A stretch of DNA of 64,000 nucleotides from Nitrososphaeria archaeon (GTDB lineage: Archaea; Thermoproteota; Nitrososphaeria; Nitrososphaerales; JAAOZN01): positions 192,001 through 256,000 of the forward strand of contig JARVJZ010000002.1 of NCBI GenBank assembly GCA_029775855.1. The letters run 5' to 3'. Position 1 is the stretch's first letter. Every line of letters begins with the position of its first letter. The notes under the pieces were generated by a model. The model saw nothing but the letters and a program-made list of their open reading frames with translations, searched no databases and was not told where the DNA came from. This document shows, one piece after another, positions 1-17,408 of this stretch. The translations under genes were made by a program, and so were the position numbers.

Positions 1-276
1 GTATTTATTACCTACAGATTCGGTTGAGTCTTGTGTGTAATCTATTTCACTGCCTATACCATAGTCATGGAGTGTTGGTGTAATGGGTGAGCCCACCCTT
101 ACTCTCTTCTCCTTATCTTCGATATCGAAAGCCTTCCACTCCGGGCCTGGGTCGATGATGTGTTCGTCTAAAATATATCCACAGGCTTCGCAGAAGGCTT
201 CGCCGCGCTCTGGGTCGCCTATTAACCTTCCACCACAAATTTTGCATATTAAAGATTCATCTATATCTTTATCCAC
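1..276 (-). CDS. tfb: Transcription initiation factor IIB, N-terminal part (runs off the window start)
   Basis: Manual translation from GTG at 276: MDKDIDESLICKICGG...FCEACGYILDEHIIDPGPEWKAF...RVGSP...LHDYG, i.e. TFB zinc ribbon plus B-reader (GPEWxAF). Not in the ORF track because it is truncated. Confidence 0.93.
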   Translation of the reverse strand, partial: MDKDIDESLICKICGGRLIGDPERGEAFCEACGYILDEHIIDPGPEWKAFDIEDKEKRVRVGSPITPTLHDYGIGSEIDYTQDSTESVGNKY

Positions 277-517
277 TTTTATCGCCCTCAGTAGAGGTGT
301 ATACTTCTTTCCCTTCGAGCTTCTTAACTCTATCGCTTAATGGAATACAAGATAGGTATGGTGCTTTAACTTGCCCAAAGACTTCAGCAACCTTAGCGAC
401 CTTTCTTCCGTTAGCGTCGATAATTATAGCGCCTACCTTAATGTTTGAAGTGGTGGCTTTGACTATGAGTCTGCCGCTCTTTGCTAGGTGTAAAACTAGG
501 CCTACTTTTTCAACCAA
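269..517 (-). CDS. gar1: H/ACA RNP subunit Gar1/Naf1
   Basis: Small beta-rich protein with KVAEVFGQVKAPY (Gar1 'G.V.dvfGPV..PY' motif); overlaps the tfb start, the usual archaeal gar1-tfb pairing. Confidence 0.85.
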   Translation of the reverse strand: MVEKVGLVLHLAKSGRLIVKATTSNIKVGAIIIDANGRKVAKVAEVFGQVKAPYLSCIPLSDRVKKLEGKEVYTSTEGDKSG

Positions 518-546
518 AGTTCAAGCCTTGCCCGCAACATGTGATT

Positions 547-1542
547 CTACTTGTATTCGTAGAAGCCCCTCTTGGTCTTTCTACCGAGTCTACCGGCTGC
601 AACCATCTTTCTAAGTATGTGGATGGGTTTGGGCATCGTGTTCCCACCTTGCATACTCTTGATGCTCTGATCCATATGGTAGAGCACATCTATGCCTATC
701 AAATCTGCTAATTCAAATGGCCCCATAGGCATGCCAGCGCCGCTCTTCATAGCTAGGTCGATATCCTTCATATCTGCAACACCTTCTTCATAGAGAGCAA
801 AGGCTTCATTGAGCATAGCCATAAGCACACGGTTCACTAGGAATCCTGGTATGTCTTTTACCACTATAGGTTGCATCGTTGCTCTATGGTTCTTAATGGA
901 TTTGCAGAAGTTTATGACGGTGTCCACTGTAGTTTGACTTGTTTCTAACCCTGGAATTACTTCTATTAATGGCAGTAGAGTTGGCGGGTTAAAGAAGTGG
1001 ATACCTATTACTTTGTCCGGTCTTTTTGTTGCCGCTGCTATTTCACTTATCATTATAGTTGAGGTGTTGGATGCTAATATAGTGTGGCTTGGGGCAACTT
1101 CGTCGAGCTTCTTGAAGATCTCCTTCTTAACATCGATCTCTTCAACGACCGATTCTATGATTAAGTCTACATCGTTGAAGTCTTCTAGGTTGAGGGTGGG
1201 GTGTATGCGTTGATAGATCTGATTTATTGTTGACTCGTCGAGTTGCGGCTTTAGCTTATCTTTTATAATCGCTTTTTGTTCTTCTGTGAACTGGATTCCT
1301 AGTGTCTGCTCCGCTTTCTTGATCTCTCGCTCCGCTCTGGTTTTATTGTATTCAAGTAGATCGTTCAGCGTCTTCTTTATGTCTGATAAAGCCCTTTGTT
1401 TTGATTCTTCTGTTCTATGCCGAGTCTTAACCTCATAGCCGTTAAAAGCCATAACCTCTGCTATCTGAGCACCCATTACACCAGCGCCAACAACACCAAT
1501 CTTCTTAATATTTGAGGACAATCTACTCACCTTCTTAAGCAT
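547..1542 (-). CDS. hbd: 3-hydroxyacyl-CoA dehydrogenase
   Basis: GAGVMG Rossmann motif, ASNTS, GIHFFNPP, PGFLVNR, PMGPFEL.D.IG.D, GRLGRKT..GFY. Confidence 0.93.
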   Translation of the reverse strand: MLKKVSRLSSNIKKIGVVGAGVMGAQIAEVMAFNGYEVKTRHRTEESKQRALSDIKKTLNDLLEYNKTRAEREIKKAEQTLGIQFTEEQKAIIKDKLKPQLDESTINQIYQRIHPTLNLEDFNDVDLIIESVVEEIDVKKEIFKKLDEVAPSHTILASNTSTIMISEIAAATKRPDKVIGIHFFNPPTLLPLIEVIPGLETSQTTVDTVINFCKSIKNHRATMQPIVVKDIPGFLVNRVLMAMLNEAFALYEEGVADMKDIDLAMKSGAGMPMGPFELADLIGIDVLYHMDQSIKSMQGGNTMPKPIHILRKMVAAGRLGRKTKRGFYEYK

Positions 1543-1560
1543 CTAGCTAGTAAAAGATGT

Positions 1561-2862
1561 TTACGGTCTCTCTATTACCATAGCCATTCCTTGACCGCCA
1601 CCTATACACATAGTCACCAAACCTCGTCTAACACCTAGCTGCTTCATCTCATGAAGCAGTGTAACCACTTGCCTAGTTCCAGTAGCGCCGATCGGATGAC
1701 CCAAGGCTATGCCACTTCCACGTGGATTGGTCTTCTCAAGATCGAATCCAAGTTCTCTAATGCAAGCTATAGCTTGTGCGGCGAATGCTTCATTCAACTC
1801 CACTATATCAAGATCCTTAACTTCGAGTCCAGCTTTGGCTAAAGCCTTTCTCACAGCTGGTATCGGGCCTAAGCCCATGTATGCTGGATCTACTCCTCCT
1901 GAAGCGTAGGATTTGACGACGCCTAAGATCTTTTGGCCTAGCTCTTCAGCCTTCTCTCTGCTCATCAGCACAACGGCTGCTGCGGCGTCGTTTATTCCAG
2001 ATGAGTTGCCAGCTGTGACTGTGCCATCTTTCTTGAATACTGGGGGTAGTGCAGCCATCTTCTCTAAGCTTGTTTCCATGGGGCGTTCGTCTGTGTCGAA
2101 TATTATTGGTGGACCTTTTCTTTGAGGTATTTCTACTGGGACGATTTCTTCTTTAAACAACCCTTCTTTTATCGCTGCTCTAGCTCTTTGGTGGCTTAGA
2201 AAGCCGATCTTATCCTGCTCCTCTCTCGTTATGCCATATTTTGCAACTATATTTTCTGCCGTATACCCCATGTGGTATCCGTAGAAGATTTCCCATAAAC
2301 CGTCGTAGACCATAACATCTATGATCTGACCGTAAGCATTCACATCCATCCTATACCCCCATCTAGCCTTAGGGAGGGCGTAGGGTGCGTTGCTCATGCT
2401 TTCGAATCCCCCAGCTACCACTACTTCTGCTTCACCAGCTGCGATAGCTTGGGCTGCTAACGCGATGGACTTTAAGCCTGAACCGCAGACTTTATTCACG
2501 GTGAAAGCTGGTGTTTCTTTAGGTATTCCAGCGTAGATCATGGCTTGTCTAGCTGGATTCTGACCTTGGCACGCCTGTATTACATTCCCCATGATCACTT
2601 CATCTATTTGAATTGGTGTTGCGTCTTCGCTCCAGTTGTAATACTGTTTTTCAAGCTCTATTAACCCAACACCTTTAAAGACGCTTGGAGCTAAACCTTG
2701 AGTGCTTTCGCTTACTATAGGCTTAAGGTGAGCACGCTCTAAGGCGGTGTGTATAACTATAGCGCCGAGCTTGCTTAGGGGTACATCCTTTAAAGAACCG
2801 CCGAAGTTTCCTATAGCTGTCCTTGCAGCTCCGGTGATAACTACTTCAGTCAAACTATTCAC
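1561..2862 (-). CDS. Acetyl-CoA C-acetyltransferase (thiolase)
   Basis: Catalytic motifs NKVCGSG, ELNEAFA, GHPIGATG, MCIGGGQG. Confidence 0.95.
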   Translation of the reverse strand: MNSLTEVVITGAARTAIGNFGGSLKDVPLSKLGAIVIHTALERAHLKPIVSESTQGLAPSVFKGVGLIELEKQYYNWSEDATPIQIDEVIMGNVIQACQGQNPARQAMIYAGIPKETPAFTVNKVCGSGLKSIALAAQAIAAGEAEVVVAGGFESMSNAPYALPKARWGYRMDVNAYGQIIDVMVYDGLWEIFYGYHMGYTAENIVAKYGITREEQDKIGFLSHQRARAAIKEGLFKEEIVPVEIPQRKGPPIIFDTDERPMETSLEKMAALPPVFKKDGTVTAGNSSGINDAAAAVVLMSREKAEELGQKILGVVKSYASGGVDPAYMGLGPIPAVRKALAKAGLEVKDLDIVELNEAFAAQAIACIRELGFDLEKTNPRGSGIALGHPIGATGTRQVVTLLHEMKQLGVRRGLVTMCIGGGQGMAMVIERP

Positions 2863-2958
2863 CTAAGCTGGCTTTGATAGTTGTTGTATAAAAGCCAAAC
2901 GGATGAACCTCTAAGCTTGGGGCAATCCTTAAATCTTTTGAACCATTATCAGGCATAG

Positions 2959-4554
2959 TTGTTTGATATAATTATAAAGAATGGAATTATAGTGGATGGC
3001 TCTGGTAATCCTTGGTTTAAATCCGATTTAGCGTTAAAGGGCGGGCGGATAGCATCTATAAGCAGAGCCTTCACAGAAAAGGCGGATAAGGTAATAGATG
3101 CGGATGGGCTTATAGTGGCGCCAGGCTTCATAGATATTCATTCGCATTCAGATTCTTGCTTGATATTTGACGGAAGCGCTCAGAGCAAGGTTAGGCAAGG
3201 TGTCACTACAGAAGTTGTTGGGAATTGCGGTATGTCAGCAGCGCCGCTTTCAAAAGAGCAGAAAGATGAAATTAAAAGACAACCTTCTTTCCTCTTACCT
3301 CCTGGCTTGACCATTGATTTCTCTTGGAGCAGTATATCTGAATATTTGGAGACCTTGGAGAAGAAGGGTATAAGTGTGAATGTAGCAATACTCGCAGGAC
3401 ACAGCAACCTTAGAATCTGGTGCATGGGGTATAGTGATGATAAACCAACTAGAAGCCAGATGCAAGAAATGAAAGATCTGCTGGAGCAGTCGATAAAAGA
3501 AGGAGCCTTCGGCTTCTCAACAGGGTTAGTCTACCCTCCGAGCGGATACGCCTCTACAGATGAATTAGTTGAGTTGGCTAAGAGTGCCGCTAAATGTGGA
3601 GGCATACATACTTCACATATTAGAAACGAGGGTGCAGCTGTGCTAGATGCTGTAAAAGAGATCATAGAGATCTCTAGGGCAAGCGGGGTGGCTGCAGAGA
3701 TTTCACACATAAAGTCTCAGCCGCCAGAATTCTGGGGTCATGTTGCTGGTATACTTGGGTTAATAGAAGGAGCGAGAAGGTCTGGTCTTGATATAACTTG
3801 TGATGTATACCCGTATACAGCTGGAAGCACCTACCTCAGCGCAGTCGTTGTACCCCTTTGGGCTATGGAAGGTGGGGTTAAAATGTTGGTTGAGAGACTT
3901 AAAGACAGCACGCTTAAAGATAAGATAAAGGAGGACTCTCTTAGAAGACGCTACTACCGAAAAGAAGACTGTGACAGAATATACATATCAGCATCGACCG
4001 TGTTTAAAGAATATGAAGGCAGAAGCATAGGCGAATTGGCCAGAGTCGCTGGCGAAGACCCAATGGATTTTATGCTGAACCTCTTAGAAGAAGACCCTAC
4101 AATCCATGTTGTTTTAGACTTCATGGATGAAAACGAAGTTAAATACGCTATTAAGCATCCTTTAACGATGGTGGGCTCAGACGGCTACGCTCTAAACGCA
4201 GAAGGACCTTTAAGCGTCGGTAAGCCCCATCCAAGAAACTATGGCACATTCCCAAGGGTGCTGCGGAAATATGTTAGGGAGGAGGCGTTGATAAGGCTAG
4301 AAGAGGGCATAAGGAAGATGACCTCATACCCGGCGCAAAGGCTTGGGTTGCGGGATAGAGGTAAGATAGCGGTGGGCTTCTGGGCTGACTTGACAATATT
4401 CAACTTTGCGCGAGTCGAAGATAAAGCCACATACGCAAACCCGCATCAATACCCTAAAGGTATAGAGTATGTGTTGGTTAATGGTGTGCCTGTAATAGAA
4501 GAGGGTGAGCATACTGGCGCTAGAGCTGGAAAAGCGCTTAGACATAACCCCTAA
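2959..4554 (+). CDS. N-acyl-D-amino acid deacylase (amidohydrolase family)
   Basis: PGFIDIHSHSD, GVTTEVVGNCG, STGLVYPP, PHPRNYGTFPRVL. Confidence 0.9.
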   Translation: MFDIIIKNGIIVDGSGNPWFKSDLALKGGRIASISRAFTEKADKVIDADGLIVAPGFIDIHSHSDSCLIFDGSAQSKVRQGVTTEVVGNCGMSAAPLSKEQKDEIKRQPSFLLPPGLTIDFSWSSISEYLETLEKKGISVNVAILAGHSNLRIWCMGYSDDKPTRSQMQEMKDLLEQSIKEGAFGFSTGLVYPPSGYASTDELVELAKSAAKCGGIHTSHIRNEGAAVLDAVKEIIEISRASGVAAEISHIKSQPPEFWGHVAGILGLIEGARRSGLDITCDVYPYTAGSTYLSAVVVPLWAMEGGVKMLVERLKDSTLKDKIKEDSLRRRYYRKEDCDRIYISASTVFKEYEGRSIGELARVAGEDPMDFMLNLLEEDPTIHVVLDFMDENEVKYAIKHPLTMVGSDGYALNAEGPLSVGKPHPRNYGTFPRVLRKYVREEALIRLEEGIRKMTSYPAQRLGLRDRGKIAVGFWADLTIFNFARVEDKATYANPHQYPKGIEYVLVNGVPVIEEGEHTGARAGKALRHNP

Positions 4555-4581
4555 AAAATAAAAGATGAAGGGCGAAAGCCC
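4552..4581 (-). terminator. Hairpin plus T-tract closing the capsid operon
   Basis: GGGC-GAAA-GCCC at 4570-4581 (plus strand); on the minus strand it is followed by TTCATCTTTTATTTTTT, just after the 4595 stop. Confidence 0.6.
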
Positions 4582-4594
4582 GTAAATCTATCAT

Positions 4595-4792
4595 CTATCT
4601 AAGACCTTTCTCTCTGCTCCAAAGAACCCATTGCTTTAAGGCTTCGTTCACGATTTGGCTGAACGAGGGTATCCTCTCACCTTTCTCATTAGCTTCTTTA
4701 ACCCTGCTACGCCAAATTTCTTCAAGAATCTCCGCAACATCGCTGTCAACACTAAATGGACCGATTTTACTCTTAGTGGGGGGCGTGTCCAC
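4595..4792 (-). CDS. Small ribbon-helix-helix-like DNA-binding protein
   Basis: Beta strand (IGPFSVD), helix (DVAEILEEIW), then SFSQIVNEALKQW typical of RHH helix B; GAAGGGGT Shine-Dalgarno-like sequence upstream. Confidence 0.65.
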   Translation of the reverse strand: MDTPPTKSKIGPFSVDSDVAEILEEIWRSRVKEANEKGERIPSFSQIVNEALKQWVLWSREKGLR

Positions 4793-4804
4793 ACACCCCT
4801 TCGG

Positions 4805-5761
4805 TTAGGCTGAGGTTATCTTTCCGATGGCAAGTGGGTCTATGGTAGCGTAGTTCCATCTCGCAGTCGCCGGCACATGCACAAGATCATTTATAGGGTC
4901 ATCAACTTCTTCAATGGTGTAGTCCCTACGCACAAAGAGAGCTCCAGCAAACCTTGTGGAGACCATAAGCGCTGTTCCTTGGGGAACAAGAGACGAGACT
5001 ATGATCTTTAATCCTGGTAGGTAGGCTATTGGGTTGCCTGGTTTAAATTCTTGGGCTGAGAATGCGATAAGGTTCTGTATTGCTGTATCTTTTAGAAGAT
5101 CGCTGTATTCGGAAGGGTTGACTGCTAGTACATCTGGTTCTCTGTCGTTCGCAGCCATTGTGCTCCACATAGATGCTATATCGTTGAATTTGAGTTGTCC
5201 GCTTGTCTGAGCATTGGCTTGGTTTTCGGCATCTTCAATAAGTTTTGTTATTATGTATTTGCTTTCGAATTTTGCTAGGGCTCTACCTAGTTCAGCCAGT
5301 TGTCTGTCTACTACATCCCACTCTGCGTCTTCTACCATATCTCTGCTTATAACAGCTCGACCTCCACTCTTCCTAGCGGTTATGGTGACAAAGCTGTATT
5401 GCTCTTCGGTTATAGGCAGCTCACCAGATTCTGCGACCCAATCTACTGAAGCAGCTGCTGCTTTGGGTATCTTTATGCTAGGAGCATCTTTAGTCAAAAC
5501 TACGCATAGCTGCCTTCCTATTAAGTTTGGTATAGCTGCATCCCAGACTTGCGCAAGCACGCTTGCTACTATTGCTGTGTCGCTTGAAAGGACGGTTTCG
5601 CTAAGTTTTAGCACACCTATCCTCTCTTTTAGGTCTCTTAACATTTCGGTGCATAGCCTTCCTCCTCTTACTATCGGTTTGTCTGCGCCTAAGGTTTCAT
5701 TCAATCTATGTAAGGCTGGTGATTCTATGTCTTTACCCTTCAACCAAGAAACCTTCTCCAA
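4805..5761 (-). CDS. HK97-fold major capsid protein
   Basis: IKIP...VDWVAE.GE.P (E-loop), ITARKSGG...ISRDMVED..WD (P-domain 'K.g....iS.E.i.D'), long spine helix, LAVNP, GL.IIVS, terminal R......DP.A; position after portal and protease. Confidence 0.88.
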   Translation of the reverse strand: MEKVSWLKGKDIESPALHRLNETLGADKPIVRGGRLCTEMLRDLKERIGVLKLSETVLSSDTAIVASVLAQVWDAAIPNLIGRQLCVVLTKDAPSIKIPKAAAASVDWVAESGELPITEEQYSFVTITARKSGGRAVISRDMVEDAEWDVVDRQLAELGRALAKFESKYIITKLIEDAENQANAQTSGQLKFNDIASMWSTMAANDREPDVLAVNPSEYSDLLKDTAIQNLIAFSAQEFKPGNPIAYLPGLKIIVSSLVPQGTALMVSTRFAGALFVRRDYTIEEVDDPINDLVHVPATARWNYATIDPLAIGKITSA

Positions 5762-5767
5762 CCACCT

Positions 5768-6211
5768 TCACCTCAGCAAGATGAGTATCTTGTCGCCTTC
5801 TTCTGCTGATTGTAAGGCTATGCCAGCGCGCTTAGCGTAGTAGATAGTGTATGTTGCTGTGCCTCCTTCATTTACTGCTTGATCCCCTAACGCTACTGCT
5901 TTCCCGTTGTTGTCAGAGCAGACTGCTTGCCCAGCAACTATTGTGCCTCCAGCTTCAACCTTCACGATACCAGCTATAGCCACTGGCACCATGCTTCCTT
6001 CTTCTGCATCGCTAAGAGCGACACCTATCACACCGTAGTCTACTGCTGTGGCTTGTCTTACTAGCGGTGGAGGGCCGTCTGCTGCTAGTTTAACAAAGAG
6101 GTTCTTTGATATAGGTGCTGCTGCTTTGAATATTGACGCAACGGCAGAGCCGCCGAAGTCGTGAACGATTCCGCTGCTGCCAAGCCATTTGTCTACCAAC
6201 CATAAGTTCAC
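5768..6211 (-). CDS. Capsid cement/decoration protein (DUF2190-like)
   Basis: IGVAL.DA..G..VPVAIAGIVKVEAGG.I.AGQ.V.SD..GKAV...GIALQSA..GD.I; located between protease and capsid genes. Confidence 0.78.
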   Translation of the reverse strand: MNLWLVDKWLGSSGIVHDFGGSAVASIFKAAAPISKNLFVKLAADGPPPLVRQATAVDYGVIGVALSDAEEGSMVPVAIAGIVKVEAGGTIVAGQAVCSDNNGKAVALGDQAVNEGGTATYTIYYAKRAGIALQSAEEGDKILILLR

Positions 6212-6241
6212 CTCGCAAACCTTCCCTCCTTACATACTTCA

Positions 6242-7243
6242 TCAGTCTCCGAGGAGGGTGCGGAGACTTGGTATGCCGGAGATTTGTTTGCTCTGTGCCT
6301 CCCTGGGTGAGGCTACTATGCCTTTCCCTTGATGCGCATTTGACTCATTACCTTCACTTAGTTTGCGTTCAAGTTTCTCTACACGCTTTAGAATGTCTTT
6401 AAGCTGCTGCTCCCAGCTTTCAGCCTCTTTTGCTTCTTGCAATCCAGCTACTCCGGTTTTGCTGGATTGTTTATTTTTCGTCTTAATTTCTTCTTGCTTT
6501 ATCACCTCTTTGCTGCTTAACCCCCCAAGGTCTAGTCGGCCTTGGGTCTGGGTTGGCACACTTTCGTTTAGTCTTTCGAGTATTGCTACTGAAGTGTTTG
6601 GGTCTCCTGGTTGAGCGTCTTTTGTTAGTAGTAGTATTCCTTCGAAGATTAAGCCTCTTGGTTTTAGTAGGTTGTCTTGGTTTTCGGTATATAGGTAGCT
6701 TGCTTCTATGCTTGCGTGTTGGATTTCTCCTTTTTTGACTAGATTGTAGGTTTCTTCGTTTACTGAGGCTATGCATTCTACTCTTTCATCTTCGTATTCC
6801 GCCCATTCAACTGAGCCTACATGAATCTTGGATGCAGTGTCGTGCGATGAGCCATACCAAACGGGTTTACCTATCAGAGTTCTTGCAGCCTTGATAAGCT
6901 CCTCTTCCAAGTAGAAGTTTTTGTTGAGGGTTGTGCCGGCGTTTAGGGCGACTATCTTTATGTAGCTTTGATTGTCTATGTGCTCTAAGGATTGAAGCCA
7001 GCTGAATGATTCCTTGAGGAAACCTCTTAGGCTGCGTTTATGCCGCTCTTTGACCCATGCTTCCGCTTCACTGATGAGCCAGCCTTTACTTAAATCAAAT
7101 AAGTATGATGATAATTTTAGCTTGCCTGAGCTTCCATCTATATATGCTAGTGCTTTGACACCTAGTTTACTGTCTACATCAAGAATCTTGTTGGCTGCAG
7201 TAGATCTAGCATCGACATCAACCCTAAGATAACCTTCGCTCAT
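6242..7243 (-). CDS. Prohead maturation protease with C-terminal scaffold-like region
   Basis: A...G.TLNKNFY..EEL..AA.TL.GKPV...H (His), VG.V, HASIE (Ser), LL....PGDP; charged coiled-coil C-terminus; located between portal and capsid genes. Confidence 0.75.
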   Translation of the reverse strand: MSEGYLRVDVDARSTAANKILDVDSKLGVKALAYIDGSSGKLKLSSYLFDLSKGWLISEAEAWVKERHKRSLRGFLKESFSWLQSLEHIDNQSYIKIVALNAGTTLNKNFYLEEELIKAARTLIGKPVWYGSSHDTASKIHVGSVEWAEYEDERVECIASVNEETYNLVKKGEIQHASIEASYLYTENQDNLLKPRGLIFEGILLLTKDAQPGDPNTSVAILERLNESVPTQTQGRLDLGGLSSKEVIKQEEIKTKNKQSSKTGVAGLQEAKEAESWEQQLKDILKRVEKLERKLSEGNESNAHQGKGIVASPREAQSKQISGIPSLRTLLGD

Positions 7244-8433
7244 TTAGACTGTGCCTCCTCTGTAAGTTGAAAACCAATTTTTGCAAGTATGCGCCTGACT
7301 TCATCGACTCTGATGAAACCGAGTTCTCCAGCACGCAGCAGATGCTCAAACTCCACTTTAGGCGGCTCAACTTGACCCCAATTAAGGCGCACAGAAGCCG
7401 CAACTGGGTCGTAGCCTTCTTGCATTACTATTAGTGAGAAGATCTTACGCTCTACTACCCTCTTAATGTATCTCTGGAGTGAGCGGATAAGCCTCTCGAA
7501 CTGCTCCTGCACTACACGAGCGGATGCTTCAGTGTATCCTGGGGTTGTAAAGAGCTTTATTATAGGTGTCTGAAGAGCCTTGATGTATGCGTTTTCAAAG
7601 TATTGCAATATAAAGTCTAGCTTCCCTCTTAGATCTAGAGTTTCTTCTACGATCTTGACATCTTTGTTTACTGCTATGCGCTCACCAGCATCTAGCTTAC
7701 CGATAAGGTTGGCTTGAGTCTGTATCCAACTATCGCTTGCATCTATGAAGACCCAAGCTGATTTGGGTATATAGTGGTGAAGGAGTTTACGGAGGTCATC
7801 CCTTAACATAGCCTTTATCTTATAGAGTGAAGGAACTACTCTTGTTGTAGAGGAGCCGTCGCTAAATTTGAGGGTGTAGGTTAAGGTTTCAGAAAGAGAA
7901 TGAAGCAGCCCTCTACCGAATGCTTCGCCGTTAACAGGACTCCAACGCCAGTGTATAATCTCTTCTGGTCTGAATTCTACTTTATTTGGTGGTTTATGCT
8001 GCTCTATCTTTAAAACATTGCCATCTAAGCTACGGTAGATTTGCCAAGTGCATCCGATTGGGAGGATCTTCAGATCTTTTAGGTTAGAGGGTGATATTAA
8101 CTCGGTAAAGGAGTTTCCATACGCTACAATCTCTTTTGCGACTTCCAGCAGATAGATGTCTAAGCCTACAGATTCAGCAAATTGATCAACGGCTCTTTTT
8201 GCTTCTTCATAACCTTCTGCACAAGTTGTGTGGAACCCTTGTCCTACTATGGCTTGGGCGTAGAAGTCTACTGCTGCTTTTGCGTCTTCGTCTTTTTTGT
8301 ATATTTCGACTAGAGTTGTGAAGGCTGGCTCTGGTGTTTCTGGTGTGGTTGGTGTGGGTATAGTCTTGACTACCCCTTTTTCTTTCAGTAGGTTGTTGAT
8401 CTTATTTTTTATGACCGCTATTTGACTGCTCAT
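7240..8433 (-). CDS. Phage-type portal protein
   Basis: KEIVAYGNSF.E (G.a..e motif), EEIIHWRW......AFGRGLL (I.H.r...G.s.l portal motif), ~400 aa, first gene of the head operon. Confidence 0.82.
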   Translation of the reverse strand: MSSQIAVIKNKINNLLKEKGVVKTIPTPTTPETPEPAFTTLVEIYKKDEDAKAAVDFYAQAIVGQGFHTTCAEGYEEAKRAVDQFAESVGLDIYLLEVAKEIVAYGNSFTELISPSNLKDLKILPIGCTWQIYRSLDGNVLKIEQHKPPNKVEFRPEEIIHWRWSPVNGEAFGRGLLHSLSETLTYTLKFSDGSSTTRVVPSLYKIKAMLRDDLRKLLHHYIPKSAWVFIDASDSWIQTQANLIGKLDAGERIAVNKDVKIVEETLDLRGKLDFILQYFENAYIKALQTPIIKLFTTPGYTEASARVVQEQFERLIRSLQRYIKRVVERKIFSLIVMQEGYDPVAASVRLNWGQVEPPKVEFEHLLRAGELGFIRVDEVRRILAKIGFQLTEEAQSK

Positions 8434-8462
8434 CTACGGTCGCTTGATGGTAGGTTTACCAG

Positions 8463-8571
8463 CTATTTAAGAGTTGCTCTTAAACCTCTTTCAACTGGTC
8501 AATAGACTGGTGTTAAACTAAAAAAGATAAGGTATATATTTAGTTAAACAAGCATCTACATTTGGTCAATA
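8463..8571. promoter_or_regulatory. Divergent promoter region with candidate operators
   Basis: Minus-strand TTAAATAG TATA (8463-8470) overlapped by perfect IR TTTAAGAG-ttg-CTCTTAAA (8466-8484). Plus-strand TATATATT (8533-8540) bracketed by an 11/12 IR, TGTTAAACTAAA (8511-8522) and TTTAGTTAAACA (8539-8550). Direct repeat TGGTCAATA at 8496 and 8563. Confidence 0.6.
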
Positions 8572-8777
8572 TGCCGGCAAAAGGTAGGAAGGGCATAACC
8601 ATCTACGAAGAAACATTTGAACTATTCAACAGATTCTACGAAGAGCATAGAGAAGAACTAAGGGCAAGAAACATAGCCTCAGTAAGCTCACTTATAATAG
8701 AATGTGCAATAAATGGCTTAGATAAGCTTAGGGATATGCTTGAAGGAGAGAAGAAGGCAAAAGCAGCTAAATCGTAG
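8571..8777 (+). CDS. RHH-like regulator divergent from the capsid operon
   Basis: MPAKGRKGITIYEETFELFNRFYEEHREEL...SVSSLIIECA, a strand-helix-helix pattern; ATG at 8571 lies ~30 nt after a TATA box. Confidence 0.65.
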   Translation: MPAKGRKGITIYEETFELFNRFYEEHREELRARNIASVSSLIIECAINGLDKLRDMLEGEKKAKAAKS

Positions 8778-8780
8778 CCC

Positions 8781-9044
8781 TCACTTATCTTGCACATCCT
8801 TTTTCTCTGGAATGCCGAGGCTTAGGCAGATTAGGCTCCTTACTTCGTCTTCGCTTAAACCCGTCTGTTGGCTTATCACTTTAACGATTATCTTGGCGGC
8901 AGCGTCTTCTAGCCTCTTGACTCGCGCATGTAGCATTTTAAGTTCTTCGTTCATCTCTCTTAATCTAATTTCTACTAAATCCCTGAGTGTTAGTAGTTCT
9001 CCGTTTATTCTCCTTAACTCTTCTTCTAACGCTTCTGGATACAT
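8781..9044 (-). CDS. Small coiled-coil hypothetical protein
   Basis: Heptad-like LEEELRRINGELLTLRDL...MNEELKML; ATG start; fills the gap between genes. Confidence 0.55.
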   Translation of the reverse strand: MYPEALEEELRRINGELLTLRDLVEIRLREMNEELKMLHARVKRLEDAAAKIIVKVISQQTGLSEDEVRSLICLSLGIPEKKDVQDK

Positions 9045-9077
9045 AAGAGTAGTTATGTGATGAGGTTAAAGAAAAGA

Positions 9078-10118
9078 TTAGCGGTCTGTAAAGTATGGTT
9101 TTATTCTCTTACAGAGCGCCTCAGGCGCCTCAAAGACTTCGCTAGAGTTTAACATAAAGGGCAAGCTCCAAACATCATTCAGATAGAGGGGTTTAAGACC
9201 GGGTCTGGAAGCTATCTCCAAACCGCACCAAAAGTGGTTTGAATCTTCTTGGGCTGAATATAGGCAAGCGTTGAAGGCTCCTATACCTTCGCTGCTATAG
9301 AATTTTAGCGTATTTTCCAATCCTTTCGCTATATGTTGAGTGTCTTCTTCACTTAGATCGCTTATACTTGATTTCCAAGATACAGTTGCTCTAACTTCGT
9401 TCTGCCTGAGAGGTGCATAGGGTAGATACCATTCGACCGAGCCTAGTTTGGCGAGGTATCTTTCGCCAAGATTCTTCTCAATCTCTGTAAGTGTTTGCCA
9501 GAAGCATTTACCTTGCTCCTCAAAGTATCTTCTGCTGCTTGAGATCAGCAGTTTTAGGCGGTTGAAAGGTGTGGTTGAAGCTAAGAGCTGCGCATGCGGA
9601 TGGGCTACTGAGGAGCCAGCGGTCGGAAGGTAGTTAATTACGAAGGCGGAATATTTTACATCTGGATTAACCTTAGATATCTTTTGAAGCATTATCTTTG
9701 CAGCAGATATGGCTTGGCTTAGAATGGAGCTGTTAAACTCACCTAATTTAAGGTCGTGCTTCTTACCTAAAACAATCACAGCATTATACTCAGCGTGAGC
9801 AAATAGGCTTGGGAAAGCGGCTACATCACCTAACCTAAGCAAACCTTCTTCAACAACATCCGCCGGAAAGCGAGCAGCACGAGCTTCTAAATTTTCTTCA
9901 CAGAAGGGGCAGCCTACTTTACTTTCCTCAAAGAAGCGGTTTAATGTATTATCGTCACCGAGAAAGAACTTTTTCACATACTCTGCTCTACCAGGTGTGA
10001 TTAGGGTTGATTCTTCTGTTAGCGGGTCGAATCTGTATTCTATGTGCTGCTCTTCTAGTTCGAAGTTCTTCAAGGGGTTATGTAGCCTAGCTTTTTTAGT
10101 AAATGATTTGAAGCGCAT
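9078..10118 (-). CDS. Galactose-1-phosphate uridylyltransferase-like protein (GalT/HIT)
   Basis: EYRFDPLT, CPFC, AGSSVAHPHAQ (HxHxQ). Confidence 0.82.
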   Translation of the reverse strand: MRFKSFTKKARLHNPLKNFELEEQHIEYRFDPLTEESTLITPGRAEYVKKFFLGDDNTLNRFFEESKVGCPFCEENLEARAARFPADVVEEGLLRLGDVAAFPSLFAHAEYNAVIVLGKKHDLKLGEFNSSILSQAISAAKIMLQKISKVNPDVKYSAFVINYLPTAGSSVAHPHAQLLASTTPFNRLKLLISSSRRYFEEQGKCFWQTLTEIEKNLGERYLAKLGSVEWYLPYAPLRQNEVRATVSWKSSISDLSEEDTQHIAKGLENTLKFYSSEGIGAFNACLYSAQEDSNHFWCGLEIASRPGLKPLYLNDVWSLPFMLNSSEVFEAPEALCKRIKPYFTDR

Positions 10119-10206
10119 CGTTTAAACTTCTTCTTACTTCTGCTTTAAGTATTCTGCTCAACAGTAAGTTTAATTCTCTTAGGGCATATGATGGGGTGAT
10201 AATAGG

Positions 10207-11094
10207 TTGGTTTTAGAGACCTTCCTTGGCTCCGCGCTCGCCCTTTTAACAGCCTTCGGCTGGGCGCTTACTTCTGTTCTTCTAAGGCGGGTTAGAGGTG
10301 TCGTTATGCCCTTTCAAAGCGCATTTATTTCATCAATTATAGGGGTTGTTGTCATTTTAACCTCATCTATGGTGTTAGGTGACGCGCAAAATCTGCTCAG
10401 TATTACACCTACAGCAGCCTCATACTGCGTTGCAGCGGGTCTAGCAAACTTCGCCTTAGGTAGGTTCCTCTGGTATAGCGGGATAAACATGATCGGAGCG
10501 TCGCGTTCAAACTCTATTGTCGCATTAGAGATCTTGTTCGCACCACTCTTGGCTGTTCTGCTTCTTAAAGAAGTAGCTGAAGTAGCTATCGCAGCAGCCA
10601 TATTAGTCATTTTGGTGGGTGTGCTTTTGATCTCTAAAAGCTACAGCTCTTCTGACACATTTGTGGGGCGCCGAGAATTTTACATCGGTATTTTGATTTC
10701 TTTAGGCGCTGCGGTAGTCTTCTCCTTTGGCGCTCTTTTAACTAAGTTAGCCGTAGTTTCTGTTGGTTCACCTCTTATAGCATTTGTTGTTGGCAGCTTG
10801 GCTTCGAGTGTCGTTTTAGCGCCTGCGGTAAAGGGGCTTGGTGCTGGCTATGGGCGGAGAGACTGGTTTATTCTTATCTCGGCTGGATTCTCGCACGCGG
10901 TTGCTGGTTTAGCGTATTGGAGTGCATTAAAGTTTGCGACAGTAGTTTTAGTTACGCCTTTGACTCAAGCATATCCACTTTTCACCCTACTCCTCTCATA
11001 CCTCTACATAAAAAGACTTGAGAATCTTAACCTACGGGTGGTCTTAGGCGCAACACTCGTAACAATAGGCGTAGTAGCAGCGACTTTAAGTTAA
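10207..11094 (+). CDS. DMT/EamA family transporter
   Basis: About 10 TM segments in two repeats; GI.MIGASRS, L.LKE, YPLFTLLLS..Y.KRLE. Confidence 0.88.
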   Translation: MVLETFLGSALALLTAFGWALTSVLLRRVRGVVMPFQSAFISSIIGVVVILTSSMVLGDAQNLLSITPTAASYCVAAGLANFALGRFLWYSGINMIGASRSNSIVALEILFAPLLAVLLLKEVAEVAIAAAILVILVGVLLISKSYSSSDTFVGRREFYIGILISLGAAVVFSFGALLTKLAVVSVGSPLIAFVVGSLASSVVLAPAVKGLGAGYGRRDWFILISAGFSHAVAGLAYWSALKFATVVLVTPLTQAYPLFTLLLSYLYIKRLENLNLRVVLGATLVTIGVVAATLS

Positions 11095-11125
11095 AAAGAG
11101 CAAGCAGACTAATAATATTTGTAAG

Positions 11126-12109
11126 ATGACTGGTAGAATAGAGCACACATATACTCTTAAAGCTCCAAATAAAGGAGTGTTCGAAGCGCACATAGACCCG
11201 CAGACTCTAGCCGAAGCGCTCTCACCCTACAACTTTAAGATGTTAAGAGCTTCTGAAATTGTATTTGGTGCCAAGCTGCATATCCAGACAACTTTACTTG
11301 GGCAGAAGTTTGAGTGGTTAATTGAAGTAGATGAAGCGCATGAGAATGTTCTCTCATACAAAGTTAACGCTACTGAAGGGTCTTGGCTTAAACTCCGCAT
11401 CACTGAAAGATTTCAACCTAAGATCGACGGAGTTGAAGTTAGATATTTAGTTGAATATGAGGCACCTCTAATGTTCACCCCTATCATAAAAAAGATGTTA
11501 ACACATATGCTCCAAGCAAAGGAAGACGCTGTTAAAAGGAGATTTAATCAGCTTACTGAAGTTAAGGAGAGGAAGCCTCTCACCTATCCACTCCACCTCT
11601 TTAACACGCTACAAATCATCGGTTTAATATTAGCAAGTGGGTTATTGATTACAGCCTCATCTTTAACCCCGCCACTAAGCTATATACTGGCATTGCTCTC
11701 TTGGATACTCTACTGGTTCACTCCACATGGCTTAGCCCACTACCTTGTGGGTAAAGTGTTAGGTATACGGTTTTCACATTATTTCATAGGGTTATCCAAC
11801 CTCTACAGACTAAAATTTATTCCTACACAGCTCAAGTTGATGCTCTTCACCTTAGGTATAAAGACGGAGAGCAAAAGCCTTTCAGCAGCTTCGCCTCGTG
11901 CAAAGGCTACTATGTATGCTGCTGGTGCTGTTGCGTCTATGGCTCTGCCCTTTACTACACCCATTTACTTACTCTATGTAGGCTTGTTTAACGAAGGAGT
12001 TCTTTTCCTCACCCTTTCTATTTTGAGTGCAGTCTTTTCAATCTACTTCAGCTTTAGAGCTGGAGACCTATGGAAGGCTACTCGCGCTCTAAGAAAAGGA
12101 GCGCTTTAA
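11126..12109 (+). CDS. SRPBCC-like domain fused to an M50-like membrane domain
   Basis: N-terminal ~140 aa soluble alpha/beta with a C-terminal helix (SRPBCC pattern); C-terminal TM region with HGLAHYLVG and YAAG. Confidence 0.5.
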   Translation: MTGRIEHTYTLKAPNKGVFEAHIDPQTLAEALSPYNFKMLRASEIVFGAKLHIQTTLLGQKFEWLIEVDEAHENVLSYKVNATEGSWLKLRITERFQPKIDGVEVRYLVEYEAPLMFTPIIKKMLTHMLQAKEDAVKRRFNQLTEVKERKPLTYPLHLFNTLQIIGLILASGLLITASSLTPPLSYILALLSWILYWFTPHGLAHYLVGKVLGIRFSHYFIGLSNLYRLKFIPTQLKLMLFTLGIKTESKSLSAASPRAKATMYAAGAVASMALPFTTPIYLLYVGLFNEGVLFLTLSILSAVFSIYFSFRAGDLWKATRALRKGAL

Positions 12110-12276
12110 AGTGCTTTGAAGATCTCTAAGGCGAAGTCGTGTATTGAGAGAATCGCCCCACAGTGCTTGCATCTAAACTTTCCATCTTTTGAATTTAAGA
12201 TTTCCTTAGTAGGTTTTAATTCAAACCCTGAATATAGGCTTGCGCCACATACACTACATACTATTTCAATAACCAA
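12106..12276 (-). CDS. Small zinc-ribbon protein (56 aa, below the ORF-track cutoff)
   Basis: TTG start: MVIEIVCSVCGASLYSGFELKPTKEILNSKDGKFRCKHCGAILS..., with two CxxCG knuckles. Confidence 0.75.
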   Translation of the reverse strand: MVIEIVCSVCGASLYSGFELKPTKEILNSKDGKFRCKHCGAILSIHDFALEIFKAL

Positions 12277-12314
12277 GTATAATCAGAGAAGTTGTTTCAT
12301 AAGTTAAATATAAA

Positions 12315-13094
12315 CTATTGTTTCACAGCTGATAACCCCCTAATGAATATACACCTACTATCCTCAATTACAAGATCCTCAAGATCAACGGGCTTGTCGA
12401 TTATAGTCAAGCCACTGTTTCTAACGATAACAATGGGTATGCTCTCACTGGTTTCACCCATCACCAAGCTAGCACCAGCACTTATGTCATCAGCAAGAGC
12501 CCGCTTTGTAACCCTCATAATGTTCCCAAAGAGGTCTGGTTTGCCTCTCTCATCACTAACAGCCTCAAAGCCCGCAGCCGCCAAGGCTATTCCTATAGTG
12601 CCGATTCTTGTAGGCATAAGCCTACTATCAGTAACCACAACCCCAACTCTCTTACCTAAATCTGTCAGAATCTGAAGGCGAAGCCTCTCAGCACTAGCAG
12701 CAGGGTTCCTTGGATAAAGTATGGCTAAGCCGCGCTTTACATTTGACCTATCTATGCCAGCATTAGGCACAACTACACCATATTTAATGGTTAAGACGAA
12801 CCCTGGTAGAGCTGCGTAGATTTTATCAGCTTCCCTTAAGATTAGTTCGGCTAAGCTGCTCGGTATGTGGGCTACACTAGAGAGTCTGATAGCCTCTTGA
12901 CTCACTTTAACCGAGTCGAGTTTAACTATTCTGCCTTCTGATAAGGCTATAAATTTACTTGAGATAGCCAATATATCGTTATCTAAAATATCTTCGCGTT
13001 GATCTTCTACAGCTTTCTTTATGGTTTCGTAGAGGTTGAAAACACCATCCATAGCAGGGGCTTTTATCGGTATGTATTCTACGCGCCTCAACAC
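12315..13094 (-). CDS. cofE: Coenzyme F420-0:L-glutamate ligase family protein
   Basis: AISSKF...EGR, PNAGIDRSN, VVVTDS...PTRIGT.G.A, D.RG.PDLFG, VMGE..E.IP. Confidence 0.85.
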   Translation of the reverse strand: MLRRVEYIPIKAPAMDGVFNLYETIKKAVEDQREDILDNDILAISSKFIALSEGRIVKLDSVKVSQEAIRLSSVAHIPSSLAELILREADKIYAALPGFVLTIKYGVVVPNAGIDRSNVKRGLAILYPRNPAASAERLRLQILTDLGKRVGVVVTDSRLMPTRIGTIGIALAAAGFEAVSDERGKPDLFGNIMRVTKRALADDISAGASLVMGETSESIPIVIVRNSGLTIIDKPVDLEDLVIEDSRCIFIRGLSAVKQ

Positions 13095-13126
13095 CGCTAG
13101 GAAAGCGTATAAGGTTATTTAACCAA

Positions 13127-14260: not shown

Positions 14261-14276
14261 ATAGTATGTTGGTTTA

Positions 14277-17287: not shown

Positions 17288-17408
17288 AGCGCCATAAAAG
17301 AGGCTGAACTAAAGTATCACCGTAATGCAAACAGCATACAATAAGAGAAATTTTTAGTAAACACTAATTTATATAGTGGTAGTTACATCAAAAATTTACC
17401 GACAAACT

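What the first reader, a model, noticed from the sequence alone, without database searches (positions are those of the whole stretch)
4595..9044. Stand-alone head-only capsid module (portal, protease/scaffold, cement, HK97 capsid) with no terminase, tail, integrase or replicon
Seen: four uninterrupted, tightly packed structural ORFs (portal and protease overlap by ATGA) in canonical head-gene order. They are followed by an RHH gene and a hairpin/T-tract terminator, and preceded directly by a TATA promoter where the terminase genes normally sit. Both flanks are ordinary host enzymes (D-aminoacylase, GalT-like). I found no tRNA target, att repeat or pseudogene debris at either edge. Known: tailed-virus proviruses and capsid-forming satellites carry a terminase, and encapsulins have no portal. 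Inference: clean loss of everything except head assembly, with apparently dedicated regulation, suggests selection on a domesticated particle. Candidates are an archaeal gene-transfer-agent head whose terminase/tail genes lie elsewhere, a capsid-size-redirecting or decoy anti-virus element, or a portal-gated nanocompartment. This is the best candidate for an undescribed system here.
Basis: partly seen in the sequence, partly recalled or inferred. Interest (0 to 1): 0.92.

Follow-up and report, generated by a model that had tools for sequence, protein, structure and literature searches.

The report
Capsid genes of a tamed virus
These capsid genes are one half of an old tailed-virus gene set that a hot-spring archaeon keeps intact in two separate places of its chromosome, most likely to build virus-like particles for its own use.

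Summary
Window 4595-8433 (- strand) encodes portal, prohead protease/scaffold, cement protein, HK97 capsid protein and a small trailing gene. They sit between host enzymes, with no tRNA, att repeat or integrase. The module is not stand-alone, though. The same genome has one terminase large subunit and a full non-contractile tail cluster on another contig (C3:198.9-213.7 kb). This is about 20 genes, with no head genes among them.

Both loci sit at the same two host sites in two other species of the genus. All genes are open there, except a terminase broken by two deletions in one species. dN/dS is 0-0.20 and dS equals that of host genes. The closest relatives whose flanks are available have head and tail contiguous. 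So one element was split before these species diverged, and both halves stayed under selection.

An RNA library holds contigs over the head genes.

Best reading, at about 0.5: a domesticated, two-locus particle-making system like a gene transfer agent. Krupovic et al. 2019 already proposed such elements for thaumarchaea. The split, the selection evidence and a conserved terminase-ABC/GNAT pair are new.

Against it: a fourth species lacks the element, and one metagenome shows strain variation at the head locus.

The parts
4553..4581 (-). Terminator-like hairpin (GGGCTTTCGCCC, 4570-4581) followed by a T-run (4553-4566), just after the last gene of the module
   Evidence: Read from the sequence. 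The hairpin letters are not conserved in G002/G003. An RNA-library contig ends at 4533.
4595..4792 (-). 65-aa gene after the capsid gene; possibly ribbon-helix-helix
   Evidence: RHH_1 only at E 0.09. 94% identical in G002/G003 with dN/dS 0 in that pair. Homologues directly follow the capsid gene in L024, L032 and L010, so it belongs to the viral module.
4805..5761 (-). HK97-fold major capsid protein, 318 aa
   Evidence: PF25209 7e-13, PF05065 2.1e-8, phrog_1650 5e-16. 88-90% identical in G002/G003, dN/dS 0.035-0.047. 26 database homologues.
5768..6211 (-). Cement/decoration protein (scaffold is possible), 147 aa
   Evidence: PF09956 Phage_cement_2 1.2e-10; phrog_673 'head scaffolding' 1.3e-19; phrog_122 'head decoration' 5e-4. 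dN/dS 0.039-0.079.
6242..7243 (-). Prohead protease with a C-terminal scaffold-like helix, 333 aa
   Evidence: No Pfam hit. The model core (about residues 90-225) matches herpesvirus assemblins (E 7e-4 to 8e-3, prob 0.99-1.0, TM by target 0.33-0.40) and T4 gp21 5jbl_B (E 0.023). Helix 265-301. S178 is invariant in 24 of 24 aligned sequences. Atlas leads point to S78/S77 protease clusters at 0.87-0.89. Fastest-evolving head gene: 62-63% identity, dN/dS 0.14-0.24.
7240..8433 (-). Portal protein, 397 aa; its stop overlaps the protease start (ATGA)
   Evidence: phrog_9232 1.8e-15; Portal_Mu 24.7 bits, cut-off 23.9. Overlap read. dN/dS 0.077-0.106.
8434..8570 (.). Divergent promoter region between the portal gene and the 68-aa gene. 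TTAAATA at 8464-8470, about 30 nt before the portal ATG. Two ATTGACCA words.
   Evidence: Alignment of three species. TTAAATA is the only exact 7-mer shared by the head and tail promoters of all three species. TTGACCAA is shared with at most 1 mismatch. Genome-wide the words are common, so this is a weak lead.
8571..8774 (+). Previously unnoted 68-aa gene, divergent from the portal gene; candidate regulator (strand-helix-helix pattern by eye only)
   Evidence: Conserved with third-position changes in G002/G003: 88.5% aa identity over 61 residues, dN/dS 0.008-0.035. No Pfam, PHROG or PADLOC family. Not found in more distant loci.
8781..9044 (-).
   Evidence: Converges on the 68-aa gene and lies 33 nt behind the GalT-like gene 9078-10118. 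No homologue in related viral modules. 86-88% identical in G002/G003.

Best explanation
The window holds the head-assembly locus of a two-locus element derived from a tailed virus.

Shown. The archaeon is a hot-spring member of the GTDB order that also holds the ammonia oxidisers. The congener G002 is labelled 'uncultured Nitrosopumilales archaeon'. It carries portal, prohead protease/scaffold, cement, HK97 capsid protein and a small trailing gene on contig C2. On contig C3 (198.9-213.7 kb) it carries about 20 genes in one direction: connector, tail terminator, tail tube, gp10-like neck protein, tape measure, baseplate/fibre proteins, several small genes, the genome's only terminase large subunit, and an ABC-ATPase/GNAT fusion. 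No gene type occurs twice. No integrase, replication gene, tRNA target or att repeat was found at either place. Related elements have head and tail contiguous, so one element was split. The split is shared by three species. Since then every gene has stayed open under purifying selection, with the same synonymous divergence as host genes.

Inferred. A split element cannot spread as a virus, so the selection acts for the host. The most likely product is a tailed particle whose head is filled by the terminase. That would make it a gene-transfer-agent-like 'viriform' that packages cellular DNA. The head operon would be switched from its own divergent promoter by the adjacent 68-aa protein. Particle formation, the nature of the cargo and any benefit are not shown.
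For: - A genome-wide terminase family search finds one match, on C3. It is a full TerL: Terminase_6N 2.3e-18, Terminase_6C, phrog_2 1.3e-42. It keeps all 42 invariant columns of a 22-sequence alignment, including Walker A GRQxGKS and D207-E208.
- Tail cluster upstream on the same strand: tail tube PF18906 3.5e-25, gp10-like phrog_5 1.2e-18, tape measure phrog_305 3.8e-10. Weaker hits to tail terminator, baseplate hub and fibre.
- Head locus syntenic and intact in G002 and G003. Tail/TerL locus syntenic in G003 on one contig and in G002 over three contigs.
- G002-G003 pair: 21 element genes have median dN/dS 0.087 (range 0-0.198) and median dS 0.551. 6 host genes have median dN/dS 0.059 and median dS 0.548.
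- G000 against G002/G003: dS is 0.9-3.1 or saturated, ratios 0.03-0.41.
- Random substitutions at the observed density left all genes open in 0 of 2000 trials.
- Contiguous head plus tail in relatives L024 and L031 and G021.
- No Phage_integrase match in the 98%-complete genome. No tRNA or repeats of 12 nt or more at the edges.
- Composition like the host: 70th and 82nd percentile of genome windows.
- RNA library X6 holds a 1693-nt contig over the cement, capsid and 65-aa genes, plus contigs over portal and protease, and none over 9001-11400.
- The closest deposited virus is the same for the capsid protein and TerL: Halogranum tailed virus 1.
Against: - TerL of G003 carries an 11-bp and a 5-bp deletion relative to G002, giving two frameshifts. 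Packaging is probably lost in that species while heads and tails stay intact.
- G001 is the nearest relative of G000 by identity of four shared host genes and is 72% complete. It has no capsid, TerL or ABC/GNAT match. Other sequence lies at both junctions.
- In DNA run X2 the head locus has 3-9.5x depth against 35-40x in the flanks, and contigs break at both edges. The dominant strain there differs at this locus.
- Outside the genus the element family is patchy. The capsid protein is in 7 of 61 genomes and TerL in 19 of 61. The TerL tree follows host families only in part.
- No small terminase subunit was recognised, and no release or lysis gene.
- The RNA evidence is contigs from one run that was found with this very sequence. 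A second RNA run has only two short contigs on the module.
- Nothing shows particles or cargo.
Confidence: 0.5

Rival explanations
1. A fossil. A provirus that lost its mobility genes and was split by a rearrangement. It now decays slowly, with no function for the host.
For: - TerL is broken in G003.
- Both loci are missing from the assembled part of G001.
- Strain-level variation at the head locus in run X2.
- Truncated capsid gene in G007.
- Patchy distribution in the order.
- No demonstrated benefit.
Against: - After a shared split, 21 genes show dN/dS of 0-0.20 at unsaturated dS, equal to host genes.
- Neutral substitution at the observed density never leaves the frames open, 0 of 2000 trials.
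- Only 1 of about 25 genes is broken in one species.
- Head genes appear in an RNA library while neighbouring genes do not.
Confidence: 0.17
2. Domesticated, but not for gene transfer. The particle or its parts serve another host purpose: a killing or defence particle, interference with related infecting viruses (assembly decoy), or a protein shell.
For: - The selection evidence says only that the proteins matter, not what they do.
- G003 keeps heads and tails intact while its terminase is broken, which fits a function that does not need DNA packaging.
- Related free or integrated viruses exist in the same habitats.
Against: - TerL is under the same constraint as the structural genes in G000 and G002, dN/dS 0.067, and keeps its catalytic motifs.
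- No toxin or defence family was found among 9 proteins scanned against PADLOC, only generic ABC-ATPase similarity.
- A portal and a full tail are not needed for a mere shell.
Confidence: 0.2
3. One reading: a self-sufficient, head-only system such as a portal-gated nanocompartment, unrelated to any terminase or tail.
For: The head locus has its own promoter, candidate regulator and terminator. It lies at least about 146 kb from the other locus.
Against: - The complementary TerL and tail genes exist once in the genome, with no duplicated function.
- They co-occur with the head locus in 3 of 4 species and are jointly missing in the fourth.
- Relatives have head and tail genes contiguous.
Confidence: 0.05
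4. An active temperate virus.
For: Intact structural genes and terminase. Relatives occur on IMG/VR contigs.
Against: - The genes lie on two contigs, each flanked by host genes on both sides.
- No integrase, att or replication genes.
- Same sites and host-like dS in three species.
Confidence: 0.03

Closest known systems
Thaumarchaeal head-tail 'proviruses' Nvie-Pro1, NCAV2-Pro1/NitIsl-Pro1 and CalSub-Pro (Krupovic et al. 2019, PMC6563490; passages read)
   Same: Hosts of the same class. A morphogenesis module with TerL, portal, protease, capsid protein and tail genes, but no identifiable replication genes or att sites. The authors state that these may be domesticated, GTA-like elements. TerL relatives of the present element (44-57% identity) sit on chromosome-size contigs of Nitrososphaerales, Nitrosocaldaceae, Caldarchaeales and Geothermarchaeales MAGs.
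   Different: According to the passages read, those elements are contiguous, and in two of them the protease is fused to the capsid protein. Here protease, cement and capsid protein are separate genes, and the element is split over two distant loci. Here there is comparative evidence for purifying selection and vertical descent. I did not compare sequences with those three elements directly.
RcGTA-type gene transfer agents of Alphaproteobacteria (recalled from general knowledge; background mentions in PMC7947584 and PMC7360931 seen only in search listings)
   Same: HK97-type head and non-contractile tail genes without replication or integration genes. Genes at more than one locus. Vertical inheritance under purifying selection. 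Occasional loss in lineages.
   Different: The host is an archaeon. There is no detectable sequence relationship beyond shared folds. Here terminase and head genes are at different loci. No host regulator is known. Production, random packaging and transfer are untested.
VTA of Methanococcus voltae, the archaeal gene transfer agent (recalled; no call)
   Same: An archaeal tailed particle that transfers host DNA.
   Different: To my recollection VTA is defined by activity and its genes are not well defined. This element is defined by genes only. The phylum is different.
Archaeal tailed viruses such as Halogranum tailed virus 1
   Same: Closest deposited virus for both the capsid protein (25% identity over 57% of the query, E 1e-7) and TerL (30%, E 1e-55).
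   Different: HGTV-1 is a 144-kb free virus. The present element is about 19 kb of structural genes fixed in a chromosome.
Encapsulins and capsid-forming satellites (cf-PICI) (recalled)
   Same: HK97-fold shells kept by cells or by satellites.
   Different: Encapsulins have no portal, protease, terminase or tail. Satellites are mobile and integrate with their own integrase. Neither fits.

Membership tests
HK97-type (Caudoviricetes) head module | HK97-fold major capsid protein | tested here: met
   PF25209 7e-13 and PF05065 2.1e-8, both over their cut-offs; 8 PHROG families, 7 of them 'major head protein'.
HK97-type (Caudoviricetes) head module | Portal protein | tested here: met
   phrog_9232 1.8e-15 over residues 4-346; Portal_Mu just over its cut-off.
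HK97-type (Caudoviricetes) head module | Prohead maturation protease of the assemblin/HK97 gp4/T4 gp21 fold | tested here: inconclusive
   Fold matches to herpesvirus proteases (E 7e-4, TM by target 0.38-0.40) and T4 gp21 (E 0.023). An invariant Ser178. No HMM hit, and the catalytic His was not pinned.
Integrated provirus of a tailed virus | One contiguous genome with integrase, att sites and replication/lysogeny genes | tested here: not met
   Two loci on different contigs, each inside host genes. No Phage_integrase match in the genome. That kind of search missed the window's own capsid gene with PF05065, so its sensitivity is limited. No repeats or tRNA.
Gene transfer agent (viriform) | Virus-derived structural and packaging genes without replication/integration functions, resident in the chromosome | tested here: met
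Gene transfer agent (viriform) | Vertical inheritance with the host under purifying selection | tested here: met
   Same two sites in 3 of 4 species of the genus. dS equals host dS. dN/dS 0-0.20. Met only at genus depth. At order level the distribution is patchy.
Gene transfer agent (viriform) | Particles are produced | not testable with these tools
   Only RNA-library contigs over the head genes.
Gene transfer agent (viriform) | Particles package more or less random host DNA, in pieces too small to carry the element's own genes | not testable with these tools
   No size-fraction or particle DNA data could be examined. The capsid size is unknown.
Gene transfer agent (viriform) | Expression under host control | tested here: inconclusive
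   Own divergent promoter and a conserved 68-aa candidate regulator at the head locus. Between the head and tail promoters only a TATA word and a weak TTGACCAA word are shared.
Encapsulin nanocompartment | HK97-fold shell protein without portal, with a cargo protein carrying a targeting peptide | tested here: not met
   Portal, protease and cement genes are present, and no cargo-type gene is adjacent.

The most novel reading that the evidence does not exclude
This is a working archaeal gene transfer agent in thermophilic relatives of the ammonia-oxidising archaea. It would be encoded at two (or more) chromosomal loci. Its conserved packaging module would be a small beta-barrel protein, the terminase and an ABC-ATPase/GNAT fusion, a module found in several families of the order. 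It would be the first archaeal gene transfer agent defined gene by gene, and would show that such agents arose independently in Thermoproteota.
Probability: 0.35. Interest if true: 0.8.

Novelty: new variant of a known kind. Interest (0 to 1): 0.62.

Why it matters
Gene transfer agents are known in genetic detail only from a few bacterial groups. For archaea, activity was reported long ago, but to my recollection no well-defined gene set exists.

Krupovic et al. (2019) suggested that thaumarchaeal head-tail 'proviruses' might be such agents. They had no comparative test.

Here a natural experiment supplies one. The element was cut in two before three species diverged, so it could no longer spread as a virus. 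Yet about 25 genes stayed intact, with host-like synonymous divergence and strong constraint. That makes the genus a concrete place to look for archaeal particles that move host DNA in hot springs.

The work also points to a conserved terminase partner, an ABC-ATPase/GNAT fusion of unknown role. If the particles prove inert or serve another purpose, the case still documents long-term host retention of a whole virion gene set in an archaeon.

Tried and rejected
- Small terminase subunit. The 120-aa gene directly upstream of TerL is 83-85% conserved, and homologues sit upstream of TerL in G008, G018, G023 and G024. It has no Pfam, PHROG or PADLOC family. Its model (7 sequences, pLDDT 71) is a small beta-barrel plus a basic helix, with only weak matches to ribosomal protein chains (E 0.01-0.2). 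It could not be called TerS.
- ABC/GNAT fusion. Only generic ABC-ATPase similarity in PDB sequences and PADLOC.
- Profile of the protease alignment against PDB sequences. Only two chance-level coiled-coil hits.
- Shared operator. TTGACC words are about twice as dense in the two loci as genome-wide (17 in 18.9 kb against 0.47 per kb). In the six promoters only TATA-type words and TTGACCAA (at most 1 mismatch) are shared. The shuffles do not keep relatedness. Not convincing.
- Composition gives no sign of foreign origin.
- TerL scan of IMG/VR with a single sequence found nothing.
- TerL and ABC/GNAT trees: same-family rows cluster for f1, f4, f6 and f9 but not f12 or f18. No case for order-wide vertical descent.
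- Parts of the window without RNA contigs in X6 (9001-11400, 12001-13800), and the thin cover in X8, are absences in contig data and prove nothing by themselves.
- PF05065 in the 'own' genome search missed the window's own capsid gene. The AmoA search rang in no control. Both negatives are weak.
- Not used: complex prediction, the search of protein representatives, the listing of cluster members and the metagenome-contig scan.
- Paper supplements were not opened. Supplementary element tables of PMC6563490 might list related loci.
- Rows dropped. In one search the ABC280 rows for G002 were a paralogue hit at 34% identity. They were left out of the medians and redone with the right contig. t137, t68 and u185 have no or only partial orthologues and were not in the dN/dS set. 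The G003 TerL was measured over its first 307-309 codons only. The 87-aa ORF was counted among the 'element' genes although its membership is doubtful.

Full report
WHAT IS IN THE WINDOW. On the - strand of window 4595-9044 lie, in transcription order:
- an 87-aa ORF (8781-9044);
- a 397-aa portal protein (7240-8433);
- a 333-aa protein (6242-7243);
- a 147-aa cement/decoration protein (5768-6211);
- a 318-aa HK97-type major capsid protein (4805-5761);
- a 65-aa protein (4595-4792).

Family searches support portal (phrog_9232 1.8e-15; Portal_Mu 24.7 bits, cut-off 23.9), cement (PF09956 1.2e-10) and capsid protein (PF25209 7e-13; PF05065 2.1e-8).

The 333-aa protein has no family hit. I aligned it with 23 homologues from related loci and modelled it (pLDDT 73.6). 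The core matches herpesvirus assemblin proteases (best E 7e-4, probability 1.0, TM by target 0.38-0.40) and T4 gp21 (E 0.023). It is followed by a long helix, residues 265-301. Ser178 is invariant in 24 of 24 sequences. I read it as a prohead protease with a scaffold-like tail. This rests on fold-level evidence, and the catalytic His is not pinned.

- Portal and protease overlap by ATGA.
- A hairpin and T-run follow the 65-aa gene.
- TTAAATA sits about 30 nt before the portal ATG.
- The flanks are an amidohydrolase and a GalT/HIT-like protein (atlas score 0.97).
- The only tRNA of the window is at 50839.
- No att-like repeat flanks the module.

Three corrections:
- The 65-aa protein is 'RHH' only at E 0.09.
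- A conserved 68-aa gene on the + strand (8571-8774), divergent from the portal gene, was missed.
- The 87-aa ORF converges on that gene and follows the GalT-like gene by 33 nt. It is more likely host-side.

THE MISSING HALF EXISTS. The window is G000:C2:192001-256000 of a 1.507-Mb, 6-contig, 98%-complete genome.

A genome-wide search with Terminase_6N finds one match, on C3. It is a 483-aa terminase large subunit (phrog_2 1.3e-42; Terminase_6N, Terminase_3, TerL_ATPase; Terminase_6C 22.4 bits, just under its 22.6-bit cut-off). It keeps all 42 invariant columns of an alignment with 21 homologues, including the Walker A and B motifs and conserved acidic residues in the C-terminal (nuclease) half.

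I then blasted every ORF of 27 related loci against the genome. This revealed homologues of a connector and a tail tube protein about 10 kb upstream of the terminase.

The stretch C3:198.9-213.7 kb is one run of about 20 genes on the - strand. Family hits are:
- an 80-aa gene;
- a 112-aa connector;
- a 147-aa tail-terminator-like protein (weak hit);
- a 317-aa tail tube protein (PF18906 3.5e-25);
- a 152-aa gp10-like neck protein (phrog_5 1.2e-18);
- a 553-aa tape measure protein (12 PHROG families, 11 annotated tape measure);
- a 477-aa baseplate-hub-like protein (weak hit);
- fibre-like proteins, including a 735-aa Laminin_G_3 protein;
- four small genes;
- the terminase;
- a 480-aa ABC-ATPase/GNAT fusion that starts one base after the terminase stop.

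No sheath-like hit appeared, so the tail looks non-contractile. No head gene is in this locus and no tail or terminase gene is in the window. The two loci are complementary.

Both loci lie deep inside their contigs, between host genes. They are at least about 146 kb apart, whichever way the contigs join. No Phage_integrase match was found in the genome. This kind of search missed the window's own capsid gene with PF05065, so the negative is not strong. No tRNA or repeat of 12 nt or more marks the C3 locus.

THE SPLIT IS OLD, AND BOTH HALVES ARE KEPT. Among 61 genomes of the order (G000 included), the capsid protein is found in 7. These include 2 of the 3 other species of the genus, at 88-89% identity.

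In G002 and G003 the head module sits at the same place, between the thiolase and the GalT-like gene. All genes are full length. The amidohydrolase is absent there.

The tail/terminase locus is also syntenic. In G003 it is on one contig with the same order and flanks. In G002 it runs over three short contigs.

For the G002-G003 pair, synonymous divergence is unsaturated:
- 21 element genes: median dS 0.551 (range 0.425-1.736), median dN/dS 0.087 (range 0-0.198).
- 6 host genes next to the tail locus: median dS 0.548 (range 0.439-0.743), median dN/dS 0.059.
- Thiolase: dS 0.526, dN/dS 0.066. GalT-like gene: dS 0.479, dN/dS 0.049.
- The 68-aa gene has dN/dS 0.008.

Between G000 and the other two species, dS is 0.9-3.1 or too saturated to compute, and ratios are 0.03-0.41. 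Random substitutions at the observed density left all genes open in 0 of 2000 trials. The larger genes stayed open in 0 or almost 0 trials each.

The closest relatives whose flanks are available have head and tail genes contiguous. These are L024 (Geothermarchaeota MAG) and L031 (groundwater thaumarchaeon), and G021 on a 461-kb contig.

The simplest history is this. One element was cut between the 65-aa gene and the connector genes before the three species diverged. Both halves have been under purifying selection since, and have diverged in step with the host. After such a cut the element cannot travel as a virus, so the selection must act through the host.

EXPRESSION AND JUNCTIONS. A sequence search found 9 runs from 4 studies that hold at least part of the stretch, most labelled hot-springs metagenomes. 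Two of them are metatranscriptomic.

Four runs were laid on window 1-18000. RNA library X6 has:
- a 1693-nt contig covering 4533-6225 (65-aa gene, capsid protein, cement; 4 differences);
- contigs over the portal gene (7222-7498, 7662-7930, 7960-8351);
- depth over the protease gene;
- pieces of the thiolase gene;
- nothing on 9001-11400.

Uneven cover of this kind is not what contaminating DNA would give. But these are contigs. The run was found with this very sequence, and the second RNA run has only two short contigs on the module. I take it as a sign of transcription, not a measure.

The junctions are real:
- An X3 contig bridges amidohydrolase to capsid gene (4449-5221).
- An X2 contig bridges portal gene to GalT-like gene (8047-9297).
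- Two other assemblies show the same neighbours.

RESULTS THAT CUT THE OTHER WAY.
(i) The terminase of G003 has an 11-bp and a 5-bp deletion relative to G002, giving two frameshifts. All other genes of that species are intact.

(ii) G001 is the nearest relative of G000 by host-gene identity. Thiolase is 92% against 87-90%, orf331 92% against 87%, orf259 85% against 76%, p175 69% against 53-54%. G001 is 72% complete. It has no capsid, terminase or ABC/GNAT match. Its contigs show other sequence after the amidohydrolase and after p175, where the two loci should start.

(iii) In DNA run X2 the flanks have 35-40x depth, but window 4405-9297 has 3-9.5x in four short contigs. Flank contigs stop at 4434 and start at 9268, and no joint across the gap was reported. 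The dominant strain in that sample carries something else at the head locus. It could be a divergent allele or other content. I could not resolve this.

(iv) Outside the genus the family is patchy. The terminase tree follows host families only in part.

These points show that the element is dispensable and is being lost in some lineages. They do not undo the selection evidence.

A WIDER FAMILY. The terminase has 413 database homologues. Many are 44-57% identical and sit on contigs of 100-730 kb from Nitrososphaerales, Nitrosocaldaceae, Caldarchaeales and Geothermarchaeales MAGs. It is found in 19 of 61 genomes of the order.

The ABC/GNAT fusion is also found in 19 of 61. 16 genomes are in both lists. 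In 10 of those 16 the fusion gene directly follows the terminase gene (coordinates; also 79, 87). So the fusion belongs to the element, not to the host flank.

Homologues of the 120-aa gene lie upstream of the terminase in four further genomes. Its model is a small beta-barrel with a basic helix and no convincing match. No small terminase subunit was recognised.

In G047 the terminase-ABC/GNAT pair is separated from portal-protease-cement-capsid by 11.6 kb. That gap holds ORFs with ABC-ATPase similarity and other unannotated ORFs, which look like host transporter genes. The connectors lie 4 kb beyond the capsid gene. This is a second, different dispersal.

The closest deposited virus for both capsid protein and terminase is Halogranum tailed virus 1, at 25% and 30% identity. 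This fits a common origin of the two loci in archaeal tailed viruses.

COMPARISON WITH WHAT IS KNOWN. I ran two full-text searches. The first used the terms gene transfer agent, Thaumarchaeota, provirus. The second used gene transfer agent, archaea, purifying selection, major capsid protein, Nitrososphaer-. Neither listed a title or abstract on a split or multi-locus element of this kind in archaea.

The nearest statement in print is Krupovic et al. 2019 (PMC6563490, passages read). It covers three thaumarchaeal head-tail elements that lack replication genes and att sites. It says they may be domesticated, GTA-like elements, or else inactivated proviruses.

Passages of two 2026 papers on proviruses treat domestication in general or do not address this case (PMC13626063; PMC13573593).

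The present case is therefore a new variant of a kind already proposed. The new points are the two-locus architecture, the test by comparative genomics, the candidate regulator and the terminase-ABC/GNAT pair. My statements on RcGTA, VTA, encapsulins and capsid-forming satellites are recalled, not looked up.

VERDICT. The 'stand-alone, head-only' reading is not supported. A domesticated particle with another role stands at about 0.2, and a slowly decaying fossil at about 0.17. Whether particles form and what they carry cannot be told from sequence.

Noticed in passing
It is 88.5% identical in two congeners, with dN/dS 0.008-0.035. It has no known family and shows a strand-helix-helix pattern by eye only.
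   Followed up: partly
window 4405-9297, run X2: In one hot-spring DNA run the head locus has 3-9.5x k-mer depth against 35-40x in both flanks. Contigs break at 4434 and 9268, with a cluster of mismatches at 9306-9340. The dominant strain carries something else at this locus.
   Followed up: no
G000:C3:198876-201771 (L002:12876-15771, - strand): The terminase large subunit is directly followed by a 480-aa ABC-ATPase/GNAT fusion. The pair is adjacent in 10 of the 16 genomes of the order that have both genes, across several families. Its role beside a terminase is unknown.
   Followed up: partly
L074:16322-17766 (G003:C33): The terminase gene of one congener has an 11-bp and a 5-bp deletion, while all other element genes of that genome are intact.
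   Followed up: yes
window 2959-4554: The amidohydrolase gene next to the module is present in G000 and G001 but absent between the thiolase and the 65-aa gene in G002 and G003. Likewise the EamA and M50-like genes (10207-12109) are absent in G003.
   Followed up: partly
L013:12891-13367 (G007:C140): A genome of another family has only the C-terminal half of a related capsid gene (52% identity). It lies 7.5 kb from a DHH-ECF transporter cluster like the one beside the G000 tail locus.
   Followed up: no
L023 and L032: One Geothermarchaeales MAG carries two different head modules of this family (60% and 41% capsid identity). Each has a small divergent gene upstream of the portal gene and no terminase-size ORF upstream within the contig.
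   Followed up: partly
L033-L041 (IMG/VR): In the Bathyarchaeia-type relatives the portal gene is downstream of the capsid gene (L033-L035) or upstream on the other strand (L036, L038, L040, L041). Gene order in this virus group is fluid.
   Followed up: no
L030: The same protease-cement-capsid module sits on a contig binned as a Krumholzibacteriaceae bacterium. Mis-binning or transfer was not examined.
   Followed up: no
window 6546-6922, run X6: One RNA-library contig shows a 'goes back 377' joint inside the protease/scaffold gene (depth 13.5).
   Followed up: no
G000 whole genome: There is no match to the archaeal AmoA family in this 98%-complete genome. The control genomes also gave no match, so this says little.
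   Followed up: no
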